Virus record (IMG/VR): IMGVR_UViG_2541047755_000010
Source: a virus
Taxonomy: Duplodnaviria > Heunggongvirae > Uroviricota > Caudoviricetes
Reading direction: 5' to 3' (one strand)
DNA: 32,432 nucleotides
The translations under genes and the position numbers were made by a program. Below, one piece after another: positions 203-20,411 of this stretch (position 1 is the first letter of the stretch; each line of letters starts with the position of its first letter). The notes beneath the pieces were generated by a model. That model was given only the letters and a program-made list of their open reading frames with translations, was not told where the DNA came from and did no database searches.

Positions 203-1132
203 CTACTTATTTCCCTGTCCAATCTTACCCGCAACTGCCTCGGTAAGCTTTACTAAGGTTTCAAGTTCATTTTTGTCTAATTTTCTTGCTTCAATAATTT
301 CAGTAGTCTGCCCTGATTCTAGTTTTCCAACTCTTGAGCTAAAATTAATTTTATCCAGAAGGTCTATCATATCGATATCTTTCTGGCTAGCCATTACAAG
401 CTTTATAATGGCATAGCTTTCCTCACGTGAACGTTTTATTGCCTCGTAATAGCGAAACTCATCCATCGTAACCCGATATTGCTTCAAAAAGAAAAATGCG
501 ATTAACTCCAAGAAAATCAACACGCCAAAATTAGGGAGAAGATACATTACCTTGGTTACCGCATCATCCTTAGCATCAATTACATGTGATTGAGAATAGA
601 AGAAACCTAATCCAACTATTGCAAAACAAACACCGACTAATAAATAAAGACTACCGCGAGAATATATGTTTTTCGCAAGACCTTCAGAGCTATTAATCAA
701 ACCTTTAAGATAAAAATCCAGAGATTCATCTTCATCAGCAGCAGCCCTTTCCTCTTGAGCCTTCTTGAGTAGTTTTATCTCATTTATAATATCGACAATA
801 TTAAACATCGATGATTTGTCGACTGAATCACTCCCTGTAATTCTCATAAACATTCTTTGGATTGGAGACACACCATAGATAATGGTGTAAACGATTACAA
901 ATGACACTGCGAATATTGACCTGATAAAGCTCGGCAAATGTGTAAGATCTGCTCTCGCACTGGGAAATAAATAATAAAAGGTTGAGTCTAATATCCCTGT
1001 AGCAAAAATTACATTTGCAACTAGAAAGACTGCACCTATCTCAACTAAATTATAAAAACCACGAGTGCGTACCCTAATGACTTTGGCCTCGGTCATTCTT
1101 GGAGGTGTTTCGATGGTTGGCTCACTCATCAT
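203..1132 (-). CDS. hypothetical multi-pass membrane protein (309 aa), AT-rich accessory gene overlapping the 3' end of int
   Basis: Intact ORF with at least four hydrophobic helix-length segments (e.g. LVEIGAVFLVANVIFATGIL, IRSIFAVSFVIVYTIIYGV, LYLLVGVCFAIVGLGFFY, VMYLLPNFGVLIFLELIAFFFL) and charged coiled-coil-like linkers. Its start at 1132 overlaps the int stop at 1122-1124. Visibly AT-rich compared with the phage backbone. Confidence 0.6.
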   Translation of the reverse strand: MMSEPTIETPPRMTEAKVIRVRTRGFYNLVEIGAVFLVANVIFATGILDSTFYYLFPSARADLTHLPSFIRSIFAVSFVIVYTIIYGVSPIQRMFMRITGSDSVDKSSMFNIVDIINEIKLLKKAQEERAAADEDESLDFYLKGLINSSEGLAKNIYSRGSLYLLVGVCFAIVGLGFFYSQSHVIDAKDDAVTKVMYLLPNFGVLIFLELIAFFFLKQYRVTMDEFRYYEAIKRSREESYAIIKLVMASQKDIDMIDLLDKINFSSRVGKLESGQTTEIIEARKLDKNELETLVKLTEAVAGKIGQGNK

Positions 1133-4578: not shown

Positions 4579-6726
4579 TTGGCTGTTCAATTCGCGTTTC
4601 CGTGGAATGCTCCACGGTCGGCAATAGCCAGTCCATATCTTACCTACGACCAACAGTATCGCCGCGACCGTATGCTCGCGGCTTTGCTGCATGCTAGAAA
4701 GGTGCTTTCCCTCCAGCCCGAGTGTGTACGTTTTGACGTTTATCGCACTGCTGCGGTGCTGGAGCAAAATCAGGGCAGTCAACGAGCCAATGCTTTTTTA
4801 ATAAGCTTCTGCAAAAAGGCATTGCCGCGTTTTGAACTGGTCGCAAAAAAATACGAGTGTACCGGTATTAACAGCAACGTATCAGCCGCTGTTTTCGGTT
4901 GTCATTTCGATACTCAGCTTATGCAATATCTGGCGTCTCGCATGGTCAACATAGTCGCCAGATACAACCGACTCCCGGATATGGCACGCGCCGACATCGA
5001 CCTGCTGGCTGCTGATATCGCCGATTTTATCCGTGCAGAGTTAGTCAACATTGACGATTCTGACATGTGTGAACTGGAGACATTAAATGCCTGGTATATG
5101 CATGCTGGTTTCATCACTCAGCAATTCAGGATAATGCCACCAGAGTGGGAACGGTCGCGGGATAAATATTGGGATCAGGATAAAGTCGCTCCAGCAATTG
5201 CCCGTATGTTTTCGGAAAAATGGTGGCGTGGCCGTCTGCGTCGCATTGCGGCTGCGTGGCGCGAACACCTGCAAATCGCAATCGGAAATGTCAGTAAGAA
5301 AAAACATGTCTACGCGAGTAAAAACTGCGTGACAGACTGGCGTGAACAGAAGCGCCGGACGCGCGAATTTCTCAAAGGTCTGGAGCTTGAAGACGAAGAC
5401 GGCAACCGTATCAGCCTGATTGAAAAATACGATGGTTCAGTCGCTAACTCTGCGATTCGACGCTGTGAGCTTATGACCCGCATTCGTGGGTTTGAAAATA
5501 TCTGCAATGAGCTCGGTTATGTTGGTGAGTTTTACACCCTGACCGCACCGTCTAAATATCACGCCACGACAAAGGCAGGCTACCGTAACACCAAATGGAA
5601 TGGATCCAATCCATCCGATACGCAATGTTATCTCACTGGCCTGTGGGCACGCATTCGCGCAAAACTCCACCGTGAAGACATTCGTATTTTCGGGATCCGC
5701 GTTGCAGAGCCTCACCATGACGGGTGCCCTCACTGGCATATGCTGATGTTTATGCTCCCGGAGGACGTCGATACCGTTCGTGGCATTATTCGGGACTACG
5801 CATGGCAAGAAGATTTTCACGAACTCAAAAGCGATAAAGCCAAAAAAGCACGTTTCCACGCAGAAGCCATTGATCCGGAGAAAGGCAGCGCAACCGGCTA
5901 CGTCGCGAAATACATCTCGAAAAATATCGACGGTTACGCTCTTGATGACGAAACCGATGACGAAAACGGTGAACTGTTGAAAGAGACAGCCCCCGCCGTT
6001 TCAGCATGGGCGGCGCGCTGGCATATTCGTCAGTTTCAGTTTATCGGTGGTGCACCAGTGACTGTTTATCGTGAATTGCGTCGCCTTGCAGATACCGAGA
6101 CCGCGCACGGTCTAAGTGTTGAGTTTGCGGCTGTCCATGATGCCGCCGATGCCGGTGATTGGGCTGGCTATGTTAATGCGCAGGGCGGTCCGTTTGTCCG
6201 TCGCGATGATTTGCAGGTGCGTACGCTTTATGAACCGCGCACCGAGTTTAACCAGTATGGTGAGGAAACTGTCTGCATTCGTGGTGTGTACGACTCCACC
6301 GTTGGTGTTGGCACTCCGATTTTAACCCGGCTCACGCAATGGAAAATTGTTCCGAAGCGTGCCGTTGATTTGGCCGTTGACGTTAAGGACGGCTTCGCCG
6401 TCCCTTGGAGTTCTGTCAATAACTGTACGGGAAGCGAAAGCGATCCACCGGAACTCGATTTATCAAAACCCCTGAGTCGACGTGAAAGGCGAGAGCTGAC
6501 GAACCGAATCAGGAAACCAAAGCCACCTAAGAGGCCGAAATTTATCCACGGAACAGATGAGCAAAGTGCTCCGATAGAAAAAACTATCGACGAGATCCGT
6601 CTGACAACCGGCATTACCATCAGCCGGGGAGAAGCCCTGCACCTGATAGCAGGTGGCAAAAGTTGTATTAACGGTAAATGGTTGCGTGGAACGTCCAAAG
6701 GTGAAATTTTCTCCGCAGCGCCATAG
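4579..6726 (+). CDS. A: rolling-circle replication initiation protein (P2 gpA family)
   Basis: About 715-aa ORF containing the PHHDGCPHWHMLMF metal-binding motif and the YVAKYISKNIDGYAL catalytic-tyrosine region typical of P2 A. The 4579 codon is TTG; the exact start is uncertain. Confidence 0.9.
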   Translation: MAVQFAFPWNAPRSAIASPYLTYDQQYRRDRMLAALLHARKVLSLQPECVRFDVYRTAAVLEQNQGSQRANAFLISFCKKALPRFELVAKKYECTGINSNVSAAVFGCHFDTQLMQYLASRMVNIVARYNRLPDMARADIDLLAADIADFIRAELVNIDDSDMCELETLNAWYMHAGFITQQFRIMPPEWERSRDKYWDQDKVAPAIARMFSEKWWRGRLRRIAAAWREHLQIAIGNVSKKKHVYASKNCVTDWREQKRRTREFLKGLELEDEDGNRISLIEKYDGSVANSAIRRCELMTRIRGFENICNELGYVGEFYTLTAPSKYHATTKAGYRNTKWNGSNPSDTQCYLTGLWARIRAKLHREDIRIFGIRVAEPHHDGCPHWHMLMFMLPEDVDTVRGIIRDYAWQEDFHELKSDKAKKARFHAEAIDPEKGSATGYVAKYISKNIDGYALDDETDDENGELLKETAPAVSAWAARWHIRQFQFIGGAPVTVYRELRRLADTETAHGLSVEFAAVHDAADAGDWAGYVNAQGGPFVRRDDLQVRTLYEPRTEFNQYGEETVCIRGVYDSTVGVGTPILTRLTQWKIVPKRAVDLAVDVKDGFAVPWSSVNNCTGSESDPPELDLSKPLSRRERRELTNRIRKPKPPKRPKFIHGTDEQSAPIEKTIDEIRLTTGITISRGEALHLIAGGKSCINGKWLRGTSKGEIFSAAP

Positions 6727-6875
6727 CTTCAGGCAAAGCCTAGGGAAATCCTTAATCGTGTTGCGGTGCTGGCAGAAACATCAAAACTCACAGGTGATTA
6801 ATTTACATCCATATCATGTACATACAACACCTACCCGATTCACTTTTTCTCTTCCCATCTTTTGCCAATACGTTA

Positions 6876-7469: not shown

Positions 7470-8453
7470 ATGGCAACGCAAGATTATAAGAGTAAAATGC
7501 TGCATTATCGCCATGCAATAATGCTTCCTAAAAAGGATGCTCTTTTAACATCAAACCTGCAAGATAGGTTGGCAAACCTTGTGAAAATCAAGGTTCCAAA
7601 TGTTGCTGATAGATTATTCTTCCCTGATGTTCCAGATAATAATGGTAATGTCGCTGCTCACGCCCACATGGTTCTTTCAAATAGCAAAGAAATTCATGGA
7701 ATGTTTTTTGCGGAAATTGTCTATATTGAACCGGGTAGTAGCATTCCTGTTTTCTCTGTTAGCGATTATGCTAAAACAGCTTTAACATACGAGACATTAA
7801 ATTTATCAAGTGGGAATGCTAGAGAGTATTTAGAAAGCATTGCATACATTGGTGTAATTAAGAACCACTTCATAATTCTGCAAAGCAGATCTATTAGAAT
7901 AAAAGATATTGAAAATTATATAAATTTCATACTACAAGACAACCTATCTATTACTGATGATAACTTCATCGTTTTACAGGCAAACAACCTGTCTCTAAAT
8001 ACGGATTTTTTAAAACGTAACATAGTAAAAAATGTTAGCTTAAAGCTGCCTTTAACCTACTATGGAAATAATATTGATGATACAGCTAGTGAGCTATTAA
8101 AAACGCTCGTAGGTGAACATCGAATTAATGAAATGAAGAAAAATGCCATTTTAAATGATGGTTCACCTGACAGGGAATCTCTATCAATTGATATTTCCAT
8201 TGGGTATAAATATAAAGCAAGCGAGTCTGAGCAAGACATGTTGCGTAAAATTACACAAGGCTTGGTTGATAATAGAGATGAAAGCTTAACAATTGAGTTA
8301 AAAGGTGCAGGAATACTCAGGAATGATGAGATTCAACTAAAGGATTCAGTTAATATTGAATACAGCAATGGAATGCTAATTGCTGACAACGTTGCTGAAG
8401 AAATGATTTCATGGTTATTGCGCTTACTAGACACCGGAGTAATTAACCCATGA
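7470..8453 (+). CDS. hypothetical soluble protein (327 aa), first gene of an AT-rich two-gene accessory cassette
   Basis: ATG with an AGAGGGA RBS; strongly AT-rich codon usage unlike the flanking phage genes; no recognisable catalytic motif by eye; its stop overlaps the next gene start (ATGA at 8450-8453). Confidence 0.7.
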   Translation: MATQDYKSKMLHYRHAIMLPKKDALLTSNLQDRLANLVKIKVPNVADRLFFPDVPDNNGNVAAHAHMVLSNSKEIHGMFFAEIVYIEPGSSIPVFSVSDYAKTALTYETLNLSSGNAREYLESIAYIGVIKNHFIILQSRSIRIKDIENYINFILQDNLSITDDNFIVLQANNLSLNTDFLKRNIVKNVSLKLPLTYYGNNIDDTASELLKTLVGEHRINEMKKNAILNDGSPDRESLSIDISIGYKYKASESEQDMLRKITQGLVDNRDESLTIELKGAGILRNDEIQLKDSVNIEYSNGMLIADNVAEEMISWLLRLLDTGVINP

Positions 8454-9136
8454 TAAACAATACGTTACAAACATATGCAAAAAACATAGCAAGCTCAATT
8501 GTAATTGGGCTTATATGTGGTTTTGTTATTGTTTTTGTTTATTCAAAATACTCATTTTTAATTGATTTCGATCCTATAATTTCAAAGGGGATCTCTGTCT
8601 TTAGCGCCGTAATCATTAGCCTCATGTTTAAGCGACTAATTGATGCTGATGATAAAATAAAGGAGTTAGAACTCCCCGCAAACACTCCATCAAGGATAAA
8701 GGATTACTTTGATGATCAAAGAACTTCATACATTCTTGACACCACTAAAAACAAAGTAACCATTGCATATATTTTTACCCTGATTTTGTTTTTTTTGATA
8801 TCACTAACGTTATCAGCGTCAATAACAAAAGTTAATGTTTATTATGGGGTATTTTTTAATTCCGCACTAACGACTACTTGCTTGGTTTTTTCAGTGTATG
8901 CGATACTATTCATTAATAGACAGACGGACATTTCAAGAAACGCAAAGTCATTCTTAAGTGAAATAATAAAAACAGAACAAGAAAGACAAAAATTAATAGA
9001 CACCATAAATAAAAACATTCGTGATGGTGTTAGTAAGGTTAACACTACCGAAATAAGGAAAAACAAAGCATTCAATATTAGAGAGTATGTAGATAATTTA
9101 GAAAAAGAGGTTCCACCACCACAAGATAAGCAATAA
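8450..9136 (+). CDS. hypothetical four-helix membrane protein (228 aa), second gene of the cassette
   Basis: Four hydrophobic helix-length segments (IASSIVIGLICGFVIVFVY, ISVFSAVIISLMF, IAYIFTLILFFLISLTLSA, VYYGVFFNSALTTTCLVFSVYAILFI) followed by a charged coiled-coil-like C-terminal tail; translationally coupled to the upstream gene. Confidence 0.7.
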   Translation: MINNTLQTYAKNIASSIVIGLICGFVIVFVYSKYSFLIDFDPIISKGISVFSAVIISLMFKRLIDADDKIKELELPANTPSRIKDYFDDQRTSYILDTTKNKVTIAYIFTLILFFLISLTLSASITKVNVYYGVFFNSALTTTCLVFSVYAILFINRQTDISRNAKSFLSEIIKTEQERQKLIDTINKNIRDGVSKVNTTEIRKNKAFNIREYVDNLEKEVPPPQDKQ

Positions 9137-16933: not shown

Positions 16934-17078
16934 CCCGACTACCAATGGCGACCTGAGCGCGGATATACGCCAGCTCGAAAGCGCCCTCGAGCGCTGTGCG
17001 CTTCAGGTCAGAACGATAAAACACTGTCAGGATAAAATCGATGTACAAGCCGAAGAGTCTGCGAAAAGCCTTAACTGA
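16788..17078 (+). CDS. lysC: outer-membrane lipoprotein spanin subunit (LysC/Rz1-like), overlapping lysB in a different frame
   Basis: MKMNSFAAGIALIYLMLCAGC carries a lipobox (LCAGC) signal peptide followed by a Pro-rich region; the gene starts inside lysB and extends beyond it, the classic overlapped spanin arrangement. Confidence 0.75.
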   Translation: MKMNSFAAGIALIYLMLCAGCTSAPPVPTPVIVYNACPKVSLCPMPGSDPTTNGDLSADIRQLESALERCALQVRTIKHCQDKIDVQAEESAKSLN

Positions 17079-17508
17079 CGCCGTGCCGGTGCTGGCACGA
17101 AACCCCGATATGATGCGTGTCTTTATCGACAACGGGAATCTGGCCTCGACGCTGGCGACGTCGCTGTCGTTTGAGAACCGGTACACGCTGAATGTGGTGG
17201 TGACCGATTTCACGGATGATATCGAGCTGTTACTCGTCCCGATTCAGGCGTGGCTACGCATACATCAGGCTGACATTATGACGACCGATGAAGGGCGTAA
17301 AAAGGGATTCACCTATTTTGCCGATATCAACGACAACGACAGCGTCGATATCAGTATCAGTCTGATGCTGACCGAGCGCACTATCGTTAAAGAACAGGGG
17401 GATAAGCTTCACGTTGAACAGGCTGAAGAGCCGCAGCCGCCGGAGCCCGTTACCCGGCCAGTTGAGCTGTATGTTAACGGTGAGCTCGTGAGTCGATTGC
17501 ATGAATGA
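17041..17508 (+). CDS. R: tail completion protein (P2 gpR family)
   Basis: 155-aa ORF; size and position match P2 R. Confidence 0.85.
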   Translation: MYKPKSLRKALTDAVPVLARNPDMMRVFIDNGNLASTLATSLSFENRYTLNVVVTDFTDDIELLLVPIQAWLRIHQADIMTTDEGRKKGFTYFADINDNDSVDISISLMLTERTIVKEQGDKLHVEQAEEPQPPEPVTRPVELYVNGELVSRLHE

Positions 17509-17968
17509 CTTTAAACCCTTTGACGATACGCTCACGGGGCTGATAGCAGCGCTGTCTCCTGCCGCCCGTCGCAGAATGGCCGCAGATATCGCTAAGACCC
17601 TGCGAGCCCGTCAACAGCGCCGGATTAAAATGCAGAAAGCCCCGGACGGGACACCTTACGCCGCCCGAAAACGCCAGCCGGTAAAAGCCAAAACAGGCCG
17701 GGTTAAGCGGGAAATGTTCGCTAAGCTCCGCACCAGTCGCTTTATGAAAGCCACAGCGGGGAATGACTCGGCGGTCGTGGAATTTACCGGCAAGGTACAA
17801 CGGATGGCGAATGTGCATCAGTACGGTCTCAAAGATAAGCCTGGGCGAAACAGTGCGCCGGTACAGTATGACGCCCGAATGCTTATCGGGTTTGATCATG
17901 AATCAAAAAATATGATTCATGACATAATTATGGTTTCTTTAGCTGAGGCGGCTAGATCTATTGATTGA
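17501..17968 (+). CDS. S: tail completion protein (P2 gpS family); the 3' end is AT-rich and contains an inverted repeat
   Basis: 155-aa ORF following R. The last ~25 codons shift to AT-rich sequence and include the 10-bp inverted repeat tcatgaatca/tgattcatga (17896-17922). Confidence 0.8.
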   Translation: MNDFKPFDDTLTGLIAALSPAARRRMAADIAKTLRARQQRRIKMQKAPDGTPYAARKRQPVKAKTGRVKREMFAKLRTSRFMKATAGNDSAVVEFTGKVQRMANVHQYGLKDKPGRNSAPVQYDARMLIGFDHESKNMIHDIIMVSLAEAARSID

Positions 17969-18005
17969 TTTTATGTATTTTATTTTCTATACAAGTGAGG
18001 ATGTT

Positions 18006-19349
18006 ATGGAAAATAAAAAATATCAAGTATTTGTGAGCTCTACATACGTCGATTTAATTGATGCTCGCAAAAAAATCATAGAAACGGTCCTTAGTTTATA
18101 CCACTTTCCAGTTGGCATGGAGATGTTTAGCGCTGATGACTCTGAGCAGTGGGATATAATAAAGGAGACTATTGATGCTAGTGATTATTATGTGATTATC
18201 ATTGGGCATAAGTATGGGTCCGTTTCTAAAGATGGTATTAGCTATACTGAAATGGAATATAACTATGCTAAATCATTAAATATACCGGTGTTGGCTTTTA
18301 TTAGAGGGAGGGACGTTTTAACAAAACCACATGAACGAGAAAGTGACCCTCAAAAAGAAAAGCAACTAAATGCTTTTATTGAAAAAGCTAAAGCTAACAA
18401 AATGTGTGATTTTTGGGAGACAATTGATGAGTTAGCGACGAAGGTTGCTATCGCCTTACCAAAAGTAATGCGACGAAATCCACGAATAGGATGGGTGCGC
18501 GGTGACCAGGTCGCATCTAAAGAGATTACCGCCGAGTTGGCTGAGCTATCTAATGAAAATAGAAAATTAAGGGAAAAAGTCCGCGAATATGAAAGCCAAT
18601 TACATAGCGATGCACCTCAATTAGAGCTGAGCATGATTGATAATGACTTAGCTTTGACGGTGGATGTGGAGTCGACTTATCAGGATTACCTTCCACAACT
18701 ATGCAAGGAAGCGGTACCTCTTGAGTTGAAGGACACTATCACCATTGATGAGATTGAATCATATAACTCTTCACTGCCTACTGATAAAGATGTGGATTTA
18801 TATAATAAAAAAATGAGATTGCACTGTAATTACAAAAACAATGCAATTACAGTGAAGCCCGTTTTAAGAAATAATGGGAGGACTTTTGCGTCAAATGTTT
18901 ATGTTGAGATTGATTTTCCTGAATTCCTAATAGTGCTTAAAGGTTCTAATGAAGACTTATTTATAAAAGAGCCGAAATTAAAAATCCCTGAGTCCCCAAT
19001 AAGTAAGCATAAAAAAAGACTCAGTGCTATAATGTCACTCGAAAATTTTAGGATGGGTATTTTTGATGATACATCGATGGTAATGGCTAAACCTCATTTC
19101 GAAGTGCCAGCAATAATTAAACGGATGGCTGATTTAGGAACAGTTAACCAAGATGAGTGGGTCATGAAAGAGGACCATAAAATCACGTTGCGTGCGAAAA
19201 AAGTGTTACAGAGCTTAACTGTTGAGTATGAGGAAATAGTCATCATTCCCTTAACGATTGGCTCTGGAGTTATTAATTTTAAAATTATATGTGAGCAATT
19301 GAAGGAGCCTGTTGTTTTTTCTCGTCAGGTTACAGTTACCCCAAGCTAG
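18006..19349 (+). CDS. AT-rich accessory protein (447 aa) with a DUF4062/TIR-like N-terminal domain, a coiled-coil linker and an uncharacterised C-terminal domain
   Basis: ATG at 18006 preceded by GAGGA. N-terminus KYQVFVSSTYVDLIDARKK…YYVIIIGHKYGSV…IPVLAFIRG resembles the DUF4062/TIR-like N-terminal pattern as I recall it. Coiled coil around ELAELSNENRKLREKVREYESQL. Sits between S and V, where P2 carries orf30. Confidence 0.7.
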   Translation: MENKKYQVFVSSTYVDLIDARKKIIETVLSLYHFPVGMEMFSADDSEQWDIIKETIDASDYYVIIIGHKYGSVSKDGISYTEMEYNYAKSLNIPVLAFIRGRDVLTKPHERESDPQKEKQLNAFIEKAKANKMCDFWETIDELATKVAIALPKVMRRNPRIGWVRGDQVASKEITAELAELSNENRKLREKVREYESQLHSDAPQLELSMIDNDLALTVDVESTYQDYLPQLCKEAVPLELKDTITIDEIESYNSSLPTDKDVDLYNKKMRLHCNYKNNAITVKPVLRNNGRTFASNVYVEIDFPEFLIVLKGSNEDLFIKEPKLKIPESPISKHKKRLSAIMSLENFRMGIFDDTSMVMAKPHFEVPAIIKRMADLGTVNQDEWVMKEDHKITLRAKKVLQSLTVEYEEIVIIPLTIGSGVINFKIICEQLKEPVVFSRQVTVTPS

Positions 19350-19425
19350 TTTTTGTATGTTGTGCCATATCTGGTAAAACCCGCATTAATTGCCGTCCAG
19401 AGCACCGGGCGGCATCCTTCCTTGT

Positions 19426-20067
19426 ATGAATACTCGCGCAACTCTTCAGGACGCTTTACGCCTCCTTCGCAACCTGATACGTACCGGCGTCGTCGTCGAA
19501 GTTGACCTCGATGACGGGCGCTGTCGCGTCCAGACTGGCGGCATTGTTACCGACTGGCTTCAGTGGCTGACCACACGCGCCGGTCGTTCACGTGTCTGGT
19601 GGGCTCCGTCTGTGGGCGAGCAGGTTTTACTGCTGGCCGTGGGTGGTGAACTCGACACCGCTTTTGTGCTGCCCGGCATTTTTTCGGATGACCACCCCGC
19701 GCCGTCGGCGTCGGCTGATGCTTTTCACATCACCTTTCCTGATGGGGCTGTTATCGAGTACGAGCCGGAGACCGGCGCGCTGACCGTGAGCGGCATTAAA
19801 ACCGCAGACGTTACGGCGTCGGATTCCATCACCGCGACGGTACCGCTGGTGACGGTGAAAGCCGAGACCCGCATCACCCTCGATACACCGGAAGTGGTCT
19901 GCACCAACAAACTGACGACGGCGACGCTTGAGGTACAACAAGGCGGCACCATGCGCGGAAACATCGAACACACCGACGGTACGTTTAAATCCAACGGCGT
20001 TCAGGTCGACAGCCACGGTCACGGCGGTGTGCAAAGAGGTGGAGCCTGGACGGAGGGCACGAAATGA
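19426..20067 (+). CDS. V: baseplate spike protein (P2 gpV family)
   Basis: 213 aa from the ATG at 19426; size and position match P2 V (211 aa). Confidence 0.85.
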   Translation: MNTRATLQDALRLLRNLIRTGVVVEVDLDDGRCRVQTGGIVTDWLQWLTTRAGRSRVWWAPSVGEQVLLLAVGGELDTAFVLPGIFSDDHPAPSASADAFHITFPDGAVIEYEPETGALTVSGIKTADVTASDSITATVPLVTVKAETRITLDTPEVVCTNKLTTATLEVQQGGTMRGNIEHTDGTFKSNGVQVDSHGHGGVQRGGAWTEGTK

Positions 20068-20411
20068 CGACCCGTTATATCGGTATGAACAGGGAGACCG
20101 GGCGCGCCATCACTGACGCCGATCACATCCGTCAGAGCTGTGGCGATATTTTGCGAACGCCGGTCGGCTCTCGCGTGATGCGTCGCGATTATGGCTCGCT
20201 GTTGTTCTCCCTGATTGATATGCCGCAGACCGACGCGCTGAGACTGCAAATTATGTGCGCCTGTTATATGGCGCTGCTGAAGTGGGAGCCGCGCATCAGC
20301 ATCAGCTCGCTGACGGTAGAACGTCAGTTTAACGGTCAGATGATTGTTGAGCTGACCGGCGAGACCCGGGACACCGGCAAAACCCTGTCACTGACTATTC
20401 CTGTGAGTTGA
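20064..20411 (+). CDS. W: baseplate wedge protein (P2 gpW family, gp25-like)
   Basis: 115-aa ORF, identical in length to P2 W and following V. Confidence 0.88.
   Translation: MTTRYIGMNRETGRAITDADHIRQSCGDILRTPVGSRVMRRDYGSLLFSLIDMPQTDALRLQIMCACYMALLKWEPRISISSLTVERQFNGQMIVELTGETRDTGKTLSLTIPVS

What the first reader, a model, noticed from the sequence alone, without database searches (positions are those of the whole stretch)
18006..19349. 447-aa DUF4062/TIR-like domain protein inserted between tail genes S and V (the position of P2 orf30)
Seen in sequence: a single AT-rich gene with its own strong RBS between tail completion gene S and baseplate spike gene V. Its N-terminal ~100 aa show the pattern KYQVFVSSTYVDL…R…YYVIIIG…, which I recall as characteristic of DUF4062, a TIR-like / nucleoside-deoxyribosyltransferase-like fold often found on defence-associated proteins. 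A coiled-coil linker and a ~250-aa C-terminal domain with no obvious motif follow. Inference: a single-gene defence or lysogenic-conversion moron, possibly acting on NAD+ or nucleotides, with the C-terminal domain as sensor.
Basis: partly seen in the sequence, partly recalled or inferred. Interest (0 to 1): 0.8.

Follow-up and report, generated by a model that had tools for sequence, protein, structure and literature searches.

The report
Prophage NAD-destroying defence gene, new sensor
A P2-like prophage carries, between two tail genes, a single accessory gene closely related to the newly described Swarozyc anti-phage NAD+-destroying enzyme, but with a different, fast-evolving C-terminal domain that probably recognises a different phage signal.

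Summary
A 447-aa ORF (18006-19349, +) with a GAGGA ribosome-binding site and 37% GC lies between tail genes S and V, whose flanks are 55-58% GC. This is the slot that holds orf30 in phage P2.

Residues 7-88 match Pfam DUF4062 over the whole profile (E=1.8e-28). Residues 3-209 align with KpSwz (E=3e-46). KpSwz is the solved "Swarozyc" protein, a portal-activated TIR-like NADase that causes abortive infection (2026 preprint). The catalytic Glu (E84 here) and the stalk Trp (W163) are invariant in 86 homologs. The modelled N-domain is closest to TIR and nucleoside-deoxyribosyltransferase folds.

The C-terminal 240 aa are not the small winged-helix portal sensor of KpSwz. They form a confidently modelled Ig/CARDB-like β-sandwich with helical inserts and a hypervariable loop.

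The gene is cargo, not structure. Only 15 of 5426 E. coli genomes carry it, and about 32 near-identical prophages hold an unrelated gene in the same slot. Relatives also occur in an integron-like array and in chromosomal sites.

Alleles in near-identical phage backbones keep the effector (86-87% identity) but not the sensor (31-32%).

Verdict: a new sensor variant of a just-described defence family. Its activity and trigger are untested.

The parts
17879..19454 (.). Exchangeable cargo cassette in the S-V slot. It comprises the last ~30 codons of S, the DUF4062 gene, the V-promoter region and the first ~10 codons of V.
   Evidence: In blastn against a prophage with ~95-96% identical flanks but a different cargo (L007), homology ends at 17878 and resumes at 19455. 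The cassette is 37.2% GC.
17997..18001 (+). Shine-Dalgarno sequence GAGGA, 4 nt upstream of the ATG.
   Evidence: Sequence read directly.
18006..19349 (+). DUF4062 defence-type gene, 447 aa, stop codon included.
   Evidence: The gene is 100% identical to WP_001366609.1 of E. coli PCN033.
18006..18500 (+). TIR-like / DUF4062 effector domain (aa 1-165). The Pfam match covers aa 7-88 (18024-18269).
18255..18257 (+). Codon of E84, the predicted catalytic glutamate, in the motif S-Y-T-E-M-E-Y. It is equivalent to KpSwz E97 and Eva01 E87.
   Evidence: E84 aligns with the Ala of the deposited KpSwz E97A chain. The chain-to-paper offset of +13 was verified with D16, R18, D71, W176 and W238/Y239, all named in the paper. 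E84 is invariant in 86 homologs.
18501..18617 (+). Junction and helical stalk (aa 166-204; helix 172-201). The invariant G162-W163 lies just upstream.
   Evidence: AF2 secondary structure. The region aligns with the KpSwz stalk. W163 corresponds to KpSwz W176 and Eva01 W162.
18618..19346 (+). C-terminal auxiliary (putative sensor) domain, aa 205-447. It is an Ig/CARDB/macroglobulin-like β-sandwich with helical insertions.
19011..19145 (+). Hypervariable segment of the C-domain (aa 336-380).
   Evidence: Most alignment indels fall here and column conservation is lowest. Residues 352-367 have pLDDT below 50. Nine of the 19 substitutions against the 96% relative fall at 342-374, and dN/dS is 1.26 from 9 nonsynonymous and 2 synonymous changes. 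Identity between alleles in near-identical backbones is 7-18%.
19357..19384 (+). Probable late-promoter (pV) activator site upstream of V. It reads ATGTTGT... with a TGT half-site 65 nt before the V ATG at 19426.
   Evidence: The position was compared by eye with the annotated pV activator site of P2 (L008 2740-2767) and with L007. The TGT-to-ATG spacing is the same and the left half-site ATGTTGT is identical to P2. This is an inference; the right half-site is imperfect.
17501..17968 (+). Left flank: tail completion gene S.
   Evidence: phrog_26, E=4e-48. PCN033 annotation.
19426..20067 (+). Right flank: baseplate spike/assembly gene V.
   Evidence: PHROG baseplate families. PCN033 annotation.

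Best explanation
The gene is a prophage-carried, single-gene abortive-infection defence of the DUF4062 family (Swarozyc / Evangelion).

Proposed mechanism:
1. The N-terminal TIR-like domain (aa 1-165, catalytic E84) is an NAD+ glycohydrolase. In the resting state it is kept inactive in stalk-mediated oligomers.
2. The helical stalk (aa ~166-204) couples the effector to the C-terminal domain.
3. The C-terminal β-sandwich domain (aa 205-447) is the sensor. It binds a protein or structure made by an infecting phage, and its hypervariable segment 336-380 contributes to specificity.
4. Binding re-arranges the stalks and switches on NAD+ hydrolysis. NAD+ is depleted, the infected lysogen stops growing or dies, and the competing phage fails to propagate.

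What is shown here: the homology, the conservation of the catalytic and stalk residues, the folds, the cargo status of the gene and the pattern of sensor diversification.

What is inferred: NADase activity, abortive infection, the sensor role of the C-domain and the nature of the trigger. The trigger need not be the portal protein, because the sensor fold differs from that of KpSwz.
For: Effector homology:
- DUF4062 matches at full profile length.
- Residues 3-209 align to KpSwz, PDB 10wc/11cq/11cv. The single sequence gives E=3.3e-46 and the family profile gives E=1.2e-65.
- KpSwz is experimentally a portal-activated NADase that depletes NAD+ and causes abortive infection. It requires E97 and its AUX domain (paper 10.64898/2026.05.01.722283).
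- Eva01 independently shows DUF4062-dependent defence that needs F11, E87, W162 and AUX (paper 10.64898/2026.06.25.731849).
- The equivalents here are F9, Q48-W49, T81/E82/E84 and W163, all invariant in 86 homologs.

Cargo status:
- GC is 37% against 55-58% in the flanks.
- The gene is present in 15 of 5426 E. coli genomes.
- About 32 genomes with ~95%-identical S and V genes carry an unrelated 361-aa gene instead.
- The gene is absent from isolated phage genomes, P2 included.
- The slot lies in the late-gene accessory/defence hotspot reported for P2-like phages (10.64898/2026.02.27.708500).

Autonomy as a single gene:
- Relatives occur alone in an Aliivibrio integron-like array and in a chromosomal site beside toxin-antitoxin-type genes.

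C-domain as a modular, diversifying sensor:
- Identity is 70% in the N-domain and 30% in the C-domain.
- dN/dS is 0.04 in the N-domain plus stalk, 0.36 in the C-domain and 1.26 in the hypervariable loop.
- Alleles in backbones with 90-99% identical R and W proteins keep the N-domain at 86-87% identity, while the C-domain is 31-32% and the hypervariable segment 7-9%.
- The same N+stalk module carries at least 5 unrelated AUX types in viral contigs.
- The same C-domain occurs with a HetE-N domain (P0140) or with a 2-TM/MORN-like N-terminus (P0164) in place of DUF4062.
Against: - No experiment exists on this protein. NADase activity, toxicity and phage protection are all inferred.
- PADLOC 2.0 has no model that matches it.
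- The gene is co-oriented with the late operon and starts 37 nt after S. No convincing sigma-70 promoter or terminator was found, so expression in the lysogen is not established.
- The C-domain fold is a generic β-sandwich and gives no clue to its ligand.
- The dN/dS above 1 in the loop rests on only 11 substitutions.
- I could not determine whether the E. coli protein tested by Osinski et al. (UniParc UPI0002A39D72) or Eva02-04 is this subtype.
Confidence: 0.75

Rival explanations
1. The architecture is the same, but the TIR/NDT-like domain acts on a substrate other than NAD+. It might hydrolyse nucleotides or nucleosides, or make a signalling nucleotide. In that case immunity would come from nucleotide-pool damage or signalling rather than from NAD+ depletion.
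Against: The protein is about 50% identical over the whole effector and stalk to KpSwz. For KpSwz, conversion of NAD+ to ADP-ribose plus nicotinamide was measured in vitro and depended on the equivalent Glu. KpSwz and TEP1 made no other ADP-ribose derivatives.
Confidence: 0.08
2. The gene serves the phage's own lytic cycle rather than defending the lysogen. It would be transcribed with the late O operon. It might then lower NAD+ late in infection to blunt NAD+-dependent host defences, or exclude superinfecting phages during lytic growth.
For: The gene has the same orientation as the late genes, starts 37 nt after S and ends 8 nt before the pV activator site. No independent promoter or intervening terminator was detected. 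The placement is identical in all 20 P2-type viral loci.
Against: Characterised relatives protect cells against other phages. Related family members exist outside phages, in an integron-like array and at chromosomal sites. The slot is occupied by unrelated cargo in sister prophages. The sensor-diversification pattern is typical of immune receptors.
Confidence: 0.1
3. The gene is a structural or assembly component of the tail or baseplate, a functional equivalent of a conserved P2 gene.
For: Only its position inside the tail gene cluster, and the Ig-like fold of the C-domain, which also decorates many virion proteins.
Against: The gene is absent from P2, Wphi, PSP3 and every other isolated phage genome searched. 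P2 orf30 at this site is nonessential, unrelated and on the other strand. Near-identical prophages lack the gene. Its GC is foreign to the backbone. Its N-domain is an enzyme fold with a conserved catalytic residue.
Confidence: 0.02

Closest known systems
Swarozyc (KpSwz, Klebsiella pneumoniae; Osinski et al. 2026 preprint, PDB 10wc/11cq/11cv)
   Same: Both have a DUF4062 TIR-like domain, a junction Trp and a helical stalk, homologous over aa 3-209 (E=3e-46; about 50% identity by eye from the printed alignment). The catalytic Glu is conserved (E84 = E97). Both are single-gene systems. Both have been annotated with a spurious ~15-codon N-terminal extension.
   Different: The KpSwz AUX domain is a ~115-aa winged-helix domain that binds the phage portal through a W238/Y239 hairpin. 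Here the C-terminal domain is ~240 aa, a β-sandwich with helical inserts, with no sequence similarity to KpSwz AUX. The trigger is therefore unknown. KpSwz was taken from a defence island, whereas this gene sits in a P2-like prophage tail-gene slot.
Evangelion (Eva01 of S. aureus plasmid pMW2, and lineages Eva02-04; Ibarra-Chavez et al. 2026 preprint)
   Same: Both are single-gene systems with a conserved DUF4062 core and a diversified AUX region. The motifs are shared: aromatic F (F9), Q/W/E (Q48-W49), S-Y-T...E-Y (S79-Y85) and the junction Trp (W163). Both are carried on mobile elements, prophages included.
   Different: Eva01 has a short AUX domain, is linked to phage recombination and replication functions and DNA binding, and is plasmid-borne in Gram-positives. 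The preprint gives no sequences here, so it cannot be said which lineage, if any, this protein belongs to.
TIR-domain NADase defences (Thoeris ThsB/ThsA, TIR-SAVED, SARM1-type NADases)
   Different: No Pfam TIR family matches. DUF4062 forms its own family between the TIR and NDT clans. No partner gene and no signalling step are apparent.
P2 accessory genes in hotspots (orf30 between S and V; old/tin between gpA and gpQ; Rousset et al. 2022; Moura de Sousa et al. 2026 preprint)
   Same: The gene occupies the same slot as orf30. Like those genes it is nonessential cargo of foreign composition that is swapped between otherwise near-identical prophages.
   Different: It is unrelated in sequence to orf30, old and tin, and lies on the opposite strand to orf30.

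Membership tests
Pfam PF13271 (DUF4062) | Match to the family HMM above the gathering score | tested here: met
   99 bits against a cutoff of 24.7, E=1.8e-28, profile positions 1-82 of 82, aa 7-88.
TIR-like / nucleoside 2-deoxyribosyltransferase-like fold | Three-layer α/β fold that superposes on TIR and NDT structures | tested here: met
Swarozyc (Osinski et al. 2026) | DUF4062 domain with the catalytic glutamate (KpSwz E97) | tested here: met
   E84 aligns with the mutated position of the E97A chain and is invariant in 86 homologs.
Swarozyc (Osinski et al. 2026) | Helical stalk after the TIR-like domain, with the junction Trp (W176) | tested here: met
   The alignment continues through aa 166-209. 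W163 = W176 and is invariant. The model has a helix at 172-201.
Swarozyc (Osinski et al. 2026) | Winged-helix AUX domain with the W238/Y239 hairpin that binds the phage portal | tested here: not met
   No sequence match beyond ~aa 209. The C-domain is a ~240-aa β-sandwich. In clustering of AUX regions it falls in a different group from the KpSwz-AUX-like sequences.
Swarozyc (Osinski et al. 2026) | Trigger-activated NAD+ hydrolysis, NAD+ depletion and abortive infection | not testable with these tools
   Needs enzymology and phage challenge.
Evangelion (Ibarra-Chavez et al. 2026) | Conserved DUF4062 core motifs: aromatic F, Q/W/E, acidic-SYT with E-Y, junction W | tested here: met
   F9, Q48-W49, S79-Y80-T81-E82-M83-E84-Y85 and W163 are present and invariant or nearly so (motif definitions).
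Evangelion (Ibarra-Chavez et al. 2026) | Single gene that functions on its own, carried on mobile elements | tested here: inconclusive
   The gene occurs alone in five unrelated kinds of context (P2 slot, other viral contigs, an integron-like array, a chromosomal site), which is consistent with autonomy. Function itself was not tested.
Evangelion (Ibarra-Chavez et al. 2026) | Assignment to a named lineage (Eva01-Eva04) | not testable with these tools
   No sequences or accessions are held for the preprint.
P2 orf30 / conserved P2 late gene | Sequence homology to orf30, or presence in all P2-like phages | tested here: not met
   tblastn of the protein against 50,697 phage records finds only two weak N-terminal hits in an Acinetobacter phage. 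P2 orf30 is on the minus strand and encodes 261 aa. Sister prophages lack the gene.
Accessory/defence hotspot cargo of P2-like prophages | Variable occupancy of one slot between conserved core genes in otherwise near-identical elements | tested here: met
   Among E. coli genomes with at least 95% identical S/V flanks, 15 carry this gene and about 32 carry an unrelated 361-aa ORF. The breakpoints are at 17878 and 19455.

The most novel reading that the evidence does not exclude
The ~240-aa β-sandwich C-domain is a previously undescribed, portable phage-sensing module. It recognises a trigger other than the portal, and its hypervariable loop (aa 336-380) sets specificity. It has been combined with at least three different death effectors: the DUF4062 NADase, a HetE-N domain and a 2-TM/MORN-like membrane module. 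In P2-like prophages it exists as an allelic series: near-identical phage backbones and effectors carry sensors only ~31-32% identical. The S-V slot would then act as a specificity-swapping locus for prophage-encoded immunity.
Probability: 0.4. Interest if true: 0.65.

Novelty: new variant of a known kind. Interest (0 to 1): 0.5.

Why it matters
DUF4062 NADases were recognised as an immune family only in 2026. The one mechanistic model, KpSwz, depends on a small winged-helix sensor that clamps the phage portal.

This locus shows that the same effector-plus-stalk module is deployed with a completely different and larger sensor. That subtype was the largest AUX group among the 80 best-matching viral contigs examined (39 of the 80 sequences clustered, including the window copy). 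In Enterobacterales it sits at a fixed site between P2 tail genes S and V.

The locus offers a natural experiment for how sensor specificity is coupled to a TIR-like effector. Alleles with 86-87% identical effectors and 31-32% identical sensors sit in near-identical phage backbones and can be swapped and tested directly.

It also adds a concrete defence gene to the less-studied late-gene hotspot of P2-like prophages. Finally, it flags two further candidate systems that reuse the same sensor with other effectors.

Tried and rejected
- PADLOC 2.0 and NCBIfam gave no informative hit.
- The weak Pfam hits in the linker (VPS38, Cnn_1N, wHTH_TTC3, StbC) are coiled-coil noise below threshold.
- The AFDB50 library was unavailable, so no structure-based search for other architectures with this C-domain was possible. 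I used phmmer against 1.84 billion representatives instead.
- Most 'short' C-domain hits from that search turned out to be N-terminally truncated copies of the same family, not new architectures. P0202, with a GHMP-kinase-like N-terminus, looks like a chimeric or mis-assembled ORF and was not counted. P0254 is a very divergent DUF4062 (E=0.003), not a new effector.
- I tried to find out whether the protein equals the E. coli construct of Osinski et al. (UPI0002A39D72) or Eva03. The cluster look-up gave no UniParc id for the exact sequence, and the Evangelion preprint has no supplementary text held.
- A full-text search for 'Swarozyc' returned nothing, probably because of an accented letter. 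A search for 'HetE-N' returned only irrelevant chemistry papers.
- The sigma-70 and terminator scan around the gene found nothing above shuffled expectation. By eye only a weak TTGATT-N17-TATACA is present upstream.
- The structural-gene hypothesis was rejected; see the rival explanations.
Full report
**1. The observation**

The window is a P2-like prophage. It is 100% identical over 17041-20411 to a prophage of E. coli PCN033 that lies between yfiB and rplS.

An ORF runs from 17961 to 19349 on the + strand, and the ATG at 18006 gives 447 aa. GAGGA at 17997-18001 lies 4 nt before that ATG. In an alignment of 86 homologs the proteins begin at the same Met, so the 15-codon TTG extension is probably not translated. 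One Salmonella record annotates the 462-aa form. The KpSwz authors likewise worked with '16-C' constructs.

The gene is 37.0% GC, against 55.0% for R+S and 58.2% for V-J. The flanking genes are the tail terminator (R-like) and tail completion (S-like) genes upstream and baseplate spike V downstream. In the P2 reference record the nonessential orf30 occupies exactly this S-V interval. There it lies on the opposite strand, between the O-operon terminator and the pV activator site.

**2. The N-terminal half**

Pfam PF13271 (DUF4062) matches aa 7-88 over the whole profile, with E=1.8e-28.

Against all PDB sequences the only significant hit is KpSwz (entries 10wc, 11cq, 11cv; 326 residues). Query residues 3-209 align to chain residues 3-209 with E=3.3e-46. 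The family profile gives E=1.2e-65.

I mapped the numbering of the deposited chain onto that of the paper. Chain position +13 reproduces D16, R18, D71, W176 and W238/Y239, all named in the text. The deposited chain is the E97A mutant, and its Ala aligns with E84 of the window protein in the motif S-Y-T-E-M-E-Y.

In 86 homologs the following residues are invariant: F9, E39, Q48, W49, T81, E82, E84, G162 and W163. These correspond to the aromatic, Q/W/E, acidic-SYT/E-Y and junction-Trp motifs that the Evangelion preprint shows to be required in Eva01 (F11, E87, W162).

- NDT-superfamily enzymes: MilB 10.2, deoxyribosyltransferases 9.1-9.3.

A long helix at aa 172-201 corresponds to the KpSwz stalk.

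**3. What is known about the relatives**

Osinski et al. (bioRxiv 10.64898/2026.05.01.722283) report the following for DUF4062 and KpSwz:
- DUF4062 is a TIR-like NADase.
- KpSwz protects E. coli against BASEL phages, depletes NAD+ and acts by abortive infection.
- It needs E97 and its AUX domain.
- It is autoinhibited in stalk-intertwined oligomers.
- It is activated when its small winged-helix AUX domain binds the portal of phage Bas14.

Ibarra-Chavez et al. (bioRxiv 10.64898/2026.06.25.731849) describe Evangelion. This is a family of single-gene DUF4062 defences with diversified AUX regions on plasmids, prophages and satellites. Eva01 is linked to phage recombination functions.

The family and its general logic are therefore already described, though only in preprints.

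**4. The C-terminal half is different**

The alignment with KpSwz ends at about residue 209. The KpSwz AUX domain is about 115 aa, whereas this C-domain is about 240 aa.

Modelled alone, aa 201-447 give pLDDT 88.9 and pTM 0.76. The domain is a β-sandwich with a helical hairpin (aa ~247-279), a further helix (~331-349) and a disordered loop.

**5. It is cargo, and the slot is a swapping site**

- Frequency: the gene occurs in 15 of 5426 complete E. coli genomes, at 99.6% identity or more.
- Alternative cargo: about 32 further genomes have S and V ~95% identical to the window but carry an unrelated 361-aa minus-strand ORF with no recognisable family.
- Breakpoints: homology between the two prophage types breaks at 17878, inside the 3' end of S. 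It resumes at 19455, inside the 5' end of V.
- Isolated phages: no isolated phage genome in the collection carries the gene.
- Published context: a 2026 survey reports that a P2 hotspot 'downstream of GpL', within the late genes, holds 16% of P2 defence systems.
- Promoter of V: the gene ends 8 nt before a sequence that resembles the pV activator site. It has the same 65-nt TGT-to-ATG spacing as in P2 and L007, and its left half ATGTTGT is identical to P2.
- Expression: the gene therefore lies at the tail end of the O operon. I found no convincing promoter of its own. Expression in the lysogen remains open.

**6. Distribution of the family**

The full-length architecture is widespread, with 1235 homologs. 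The top 120 are all ~440-470 aa and share 40-96% identity.

Members at 44-100% identity sit in the same place, R-S | gene | V-W. The S stop is 41-76 nt upstream and V starts 71-91 nt downstream. These members come from E. coli, Salmonella-type, Klebsiella, Kosakonia and Yersinia prophages and from 20 IMG/VR contigs.

More distant members lie elsewhere:
- An Aliivibrio integron-like cassette array.
- A chromosomal site beside Uma2 and PIN genes.
- Other positions in viral contigs, for example after a com-methyltransferase pair and before a tail sheath gene, or beside repressor-like genes.

The gene is thus an autonomous single-gene unit.

**7. Evidence that the C-domain is a diversifying, modular sensor**

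- Divergence by region: within the family, mean pairwise identity is 70% for aa 1-165, 48% for the stalk and 30% for the C-domain. Indels and the lowest conservation are concentrated at aa ~336-380.
- Selection: against a 96%-identical relative, 17 of 19 substitutions fall in the C-domain and 9 of them at 342-374. dN/dS is 0.04 for the N-domain plus stalk, 0.36 for the C-domain and 1.26 for aa 336-380. The last value rests on small counts.
- Allelic series: contigs L029, L031 and L032 encode R and W proteins 90-99% identical to the window's. Their DUF4062 alleles are 86-87% identical in the N-domain but 31-32% in the C-domain and 7-9% in the hypervariable segment.
- Modularity seen from the effector side: among the 80 best viral loci plus the window, the N+stalk module is joined to at least five unrelated AUX types. 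This type accounts for 39 of the 80 sequences that could be clustered (counting the window), and a 115-171-aa type that includes KpSwz-AUX-like sequences accounts for 31.
- Modularity seen from the sensor side: a phmmer search with the C-domain alone against 1.84 billion representatives found 155 hits. Almost all have the same architecture with DUF4062. P0140, a complete ORF, joins the C-domain to a HetE-N domain (PF20701, E=1.6e-11). P0164 and P0159 join it to two predicted TM helices and MORN-like repeats.

**8. Mechanism**

The best-supported reading is a Swarozyc-type abortive-infection NADase whose trigger specificity is set by a different sensor domain. The steps are as follows, with the status of each marked:

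1. The protein is an autoinhibited oligomer held through the stalk. This is inferred from KpSwz.
2. The β-sandwich domain binds a phage-made ligand. This is inferred from modularity and diversification; the ligand is unknown.
3. The stalks re-arrange. This is inferred.
4. E84-dependent NAD+ hydrolysis follows. This is inferred from ~50% identity to a measured enzyme and from invariant catalytic residues.
5. NAD+ is depleted and infection aborts. This is inferred.

The rivals are an alternative substrate, a lytic-cycle function for the phage itself, and a structural role. They are weighed in the rival-explanations section. The structural role is effectively excluded.

**9. Novelty and score**

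It pre-dates, or was made independently of, two 2026 preprints that now describe the family. I therefore rate this as a new variant of a known kind.

Known:
- The effector, the stalk and the single-gene logic.
- Carriage of the family on prophages, stated in general terms.

Not described in the texts I could read:
- This large β-sandwich sensor.
- Its fixed S-V location in enterobacterial P2-like prophages.
- The allelic sensor series in near-identical backbones.
- Reuse of the sensor with HetE-N and TM/MORN N-termini.

I could not exclude that Eva02-04 or the E. coli construct of Osinski et al. belongs to this subtype. Osinski et al. state that their five tested proteins share similar AUX domains with KpSwz. 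Interest is 0.5.

Noticed in passing
window 7470-9136 (+): Two overlapping ORFs (327 aa and 228 aa; 32.9% GC) lie between the replication gene and the portal gene. This is the gpA-gpQ defence hotspot of P2-like phages (Rousset et al. 2022). They have no Pfam, PADLOC or PDB sequence match, so they are a candidate uncharacterised two-gene defence system.
   Followed up: partly
window 203-1132 (-): A 309-aa ORF of 37% GC lies next to the integrase (1122-2159, -), at the att-integrase position. The 2026 P2/P4 survey lists this position as a minor defence hotspot. It has no Pfam hit and only a sub-threshold PADLOC hit.
   Followed up: partly
L007:1956-3041 (-) (E. coli 675SK2 and ~31 other genomes): This is the alternative occupant of the same S-V slot in sister prophages. 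It is a 361-aa minus-strand ORF (WP_071940771.1) with no Pfam, PADLOC or PDB sequence match, and is possibly another unknown defence gene.
   Followed up: partly
P0140 (L014:267-1382) and P0164/P0159: These proteins have the same β-sandwich C-domain (26-29% identity) fused to something other than DUF4062. P0140 has a HetE-N domain (PF20701). P0164 and P0159 have two TM helices plus MORN-like repeats. They are candidate sister systems that reuse the sensor with other effectors.
   Followed up: partly
L076:2021-2992 (IMG/VR contig 3300005066_000183): A 324-aa protein with the Swarozyc-type N+stalk module and the short AUX type also sits between distant gpS and gpV homologs, about 1 kb after S. 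The S-V slot therefore hosts more than one DUF4062 subtype.
   Followed up: no
window 17961-18005: A 15-codon in-frame TTG extension overlaps the end of S. It is annotated as the start (462 aa) in at least one Salmonella record, P0123. It parallels the 15 N-terminal residues removed in the KpSwz '16-C' constructs and is probably a recurrent start-site mis-annotation in this family.
   Followed up: yes
P0125 (E. coli MCV1936400.1, 341 aa): This is a frameshift-truncated allele of the same gene that loses the last ~110 aa of the C-domain. It shows occasional inactivation of the sensor in natural isolates.
   Followed up: no
window 4579-6801 (+): The replication endonuclease (gpA-like) gene is annotated as a pseudogene with an internal stop in the matching PCN033 prophage. 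In the window the ORF ends at 6726. The prophage may be replication-defective while keeping its cargo genes.
   Followed up: no
L003:1-17338 (Aliivibrio sifiae): The Aliivibrio family member lies in a long array of small, same-strand cassettes: many GNAT acetyltransferases, a TacA antitoxin and a separate TIR-domain protein ~7 kb upstream. This looks like a chromosomal integron cassette array.
   Followed up: no
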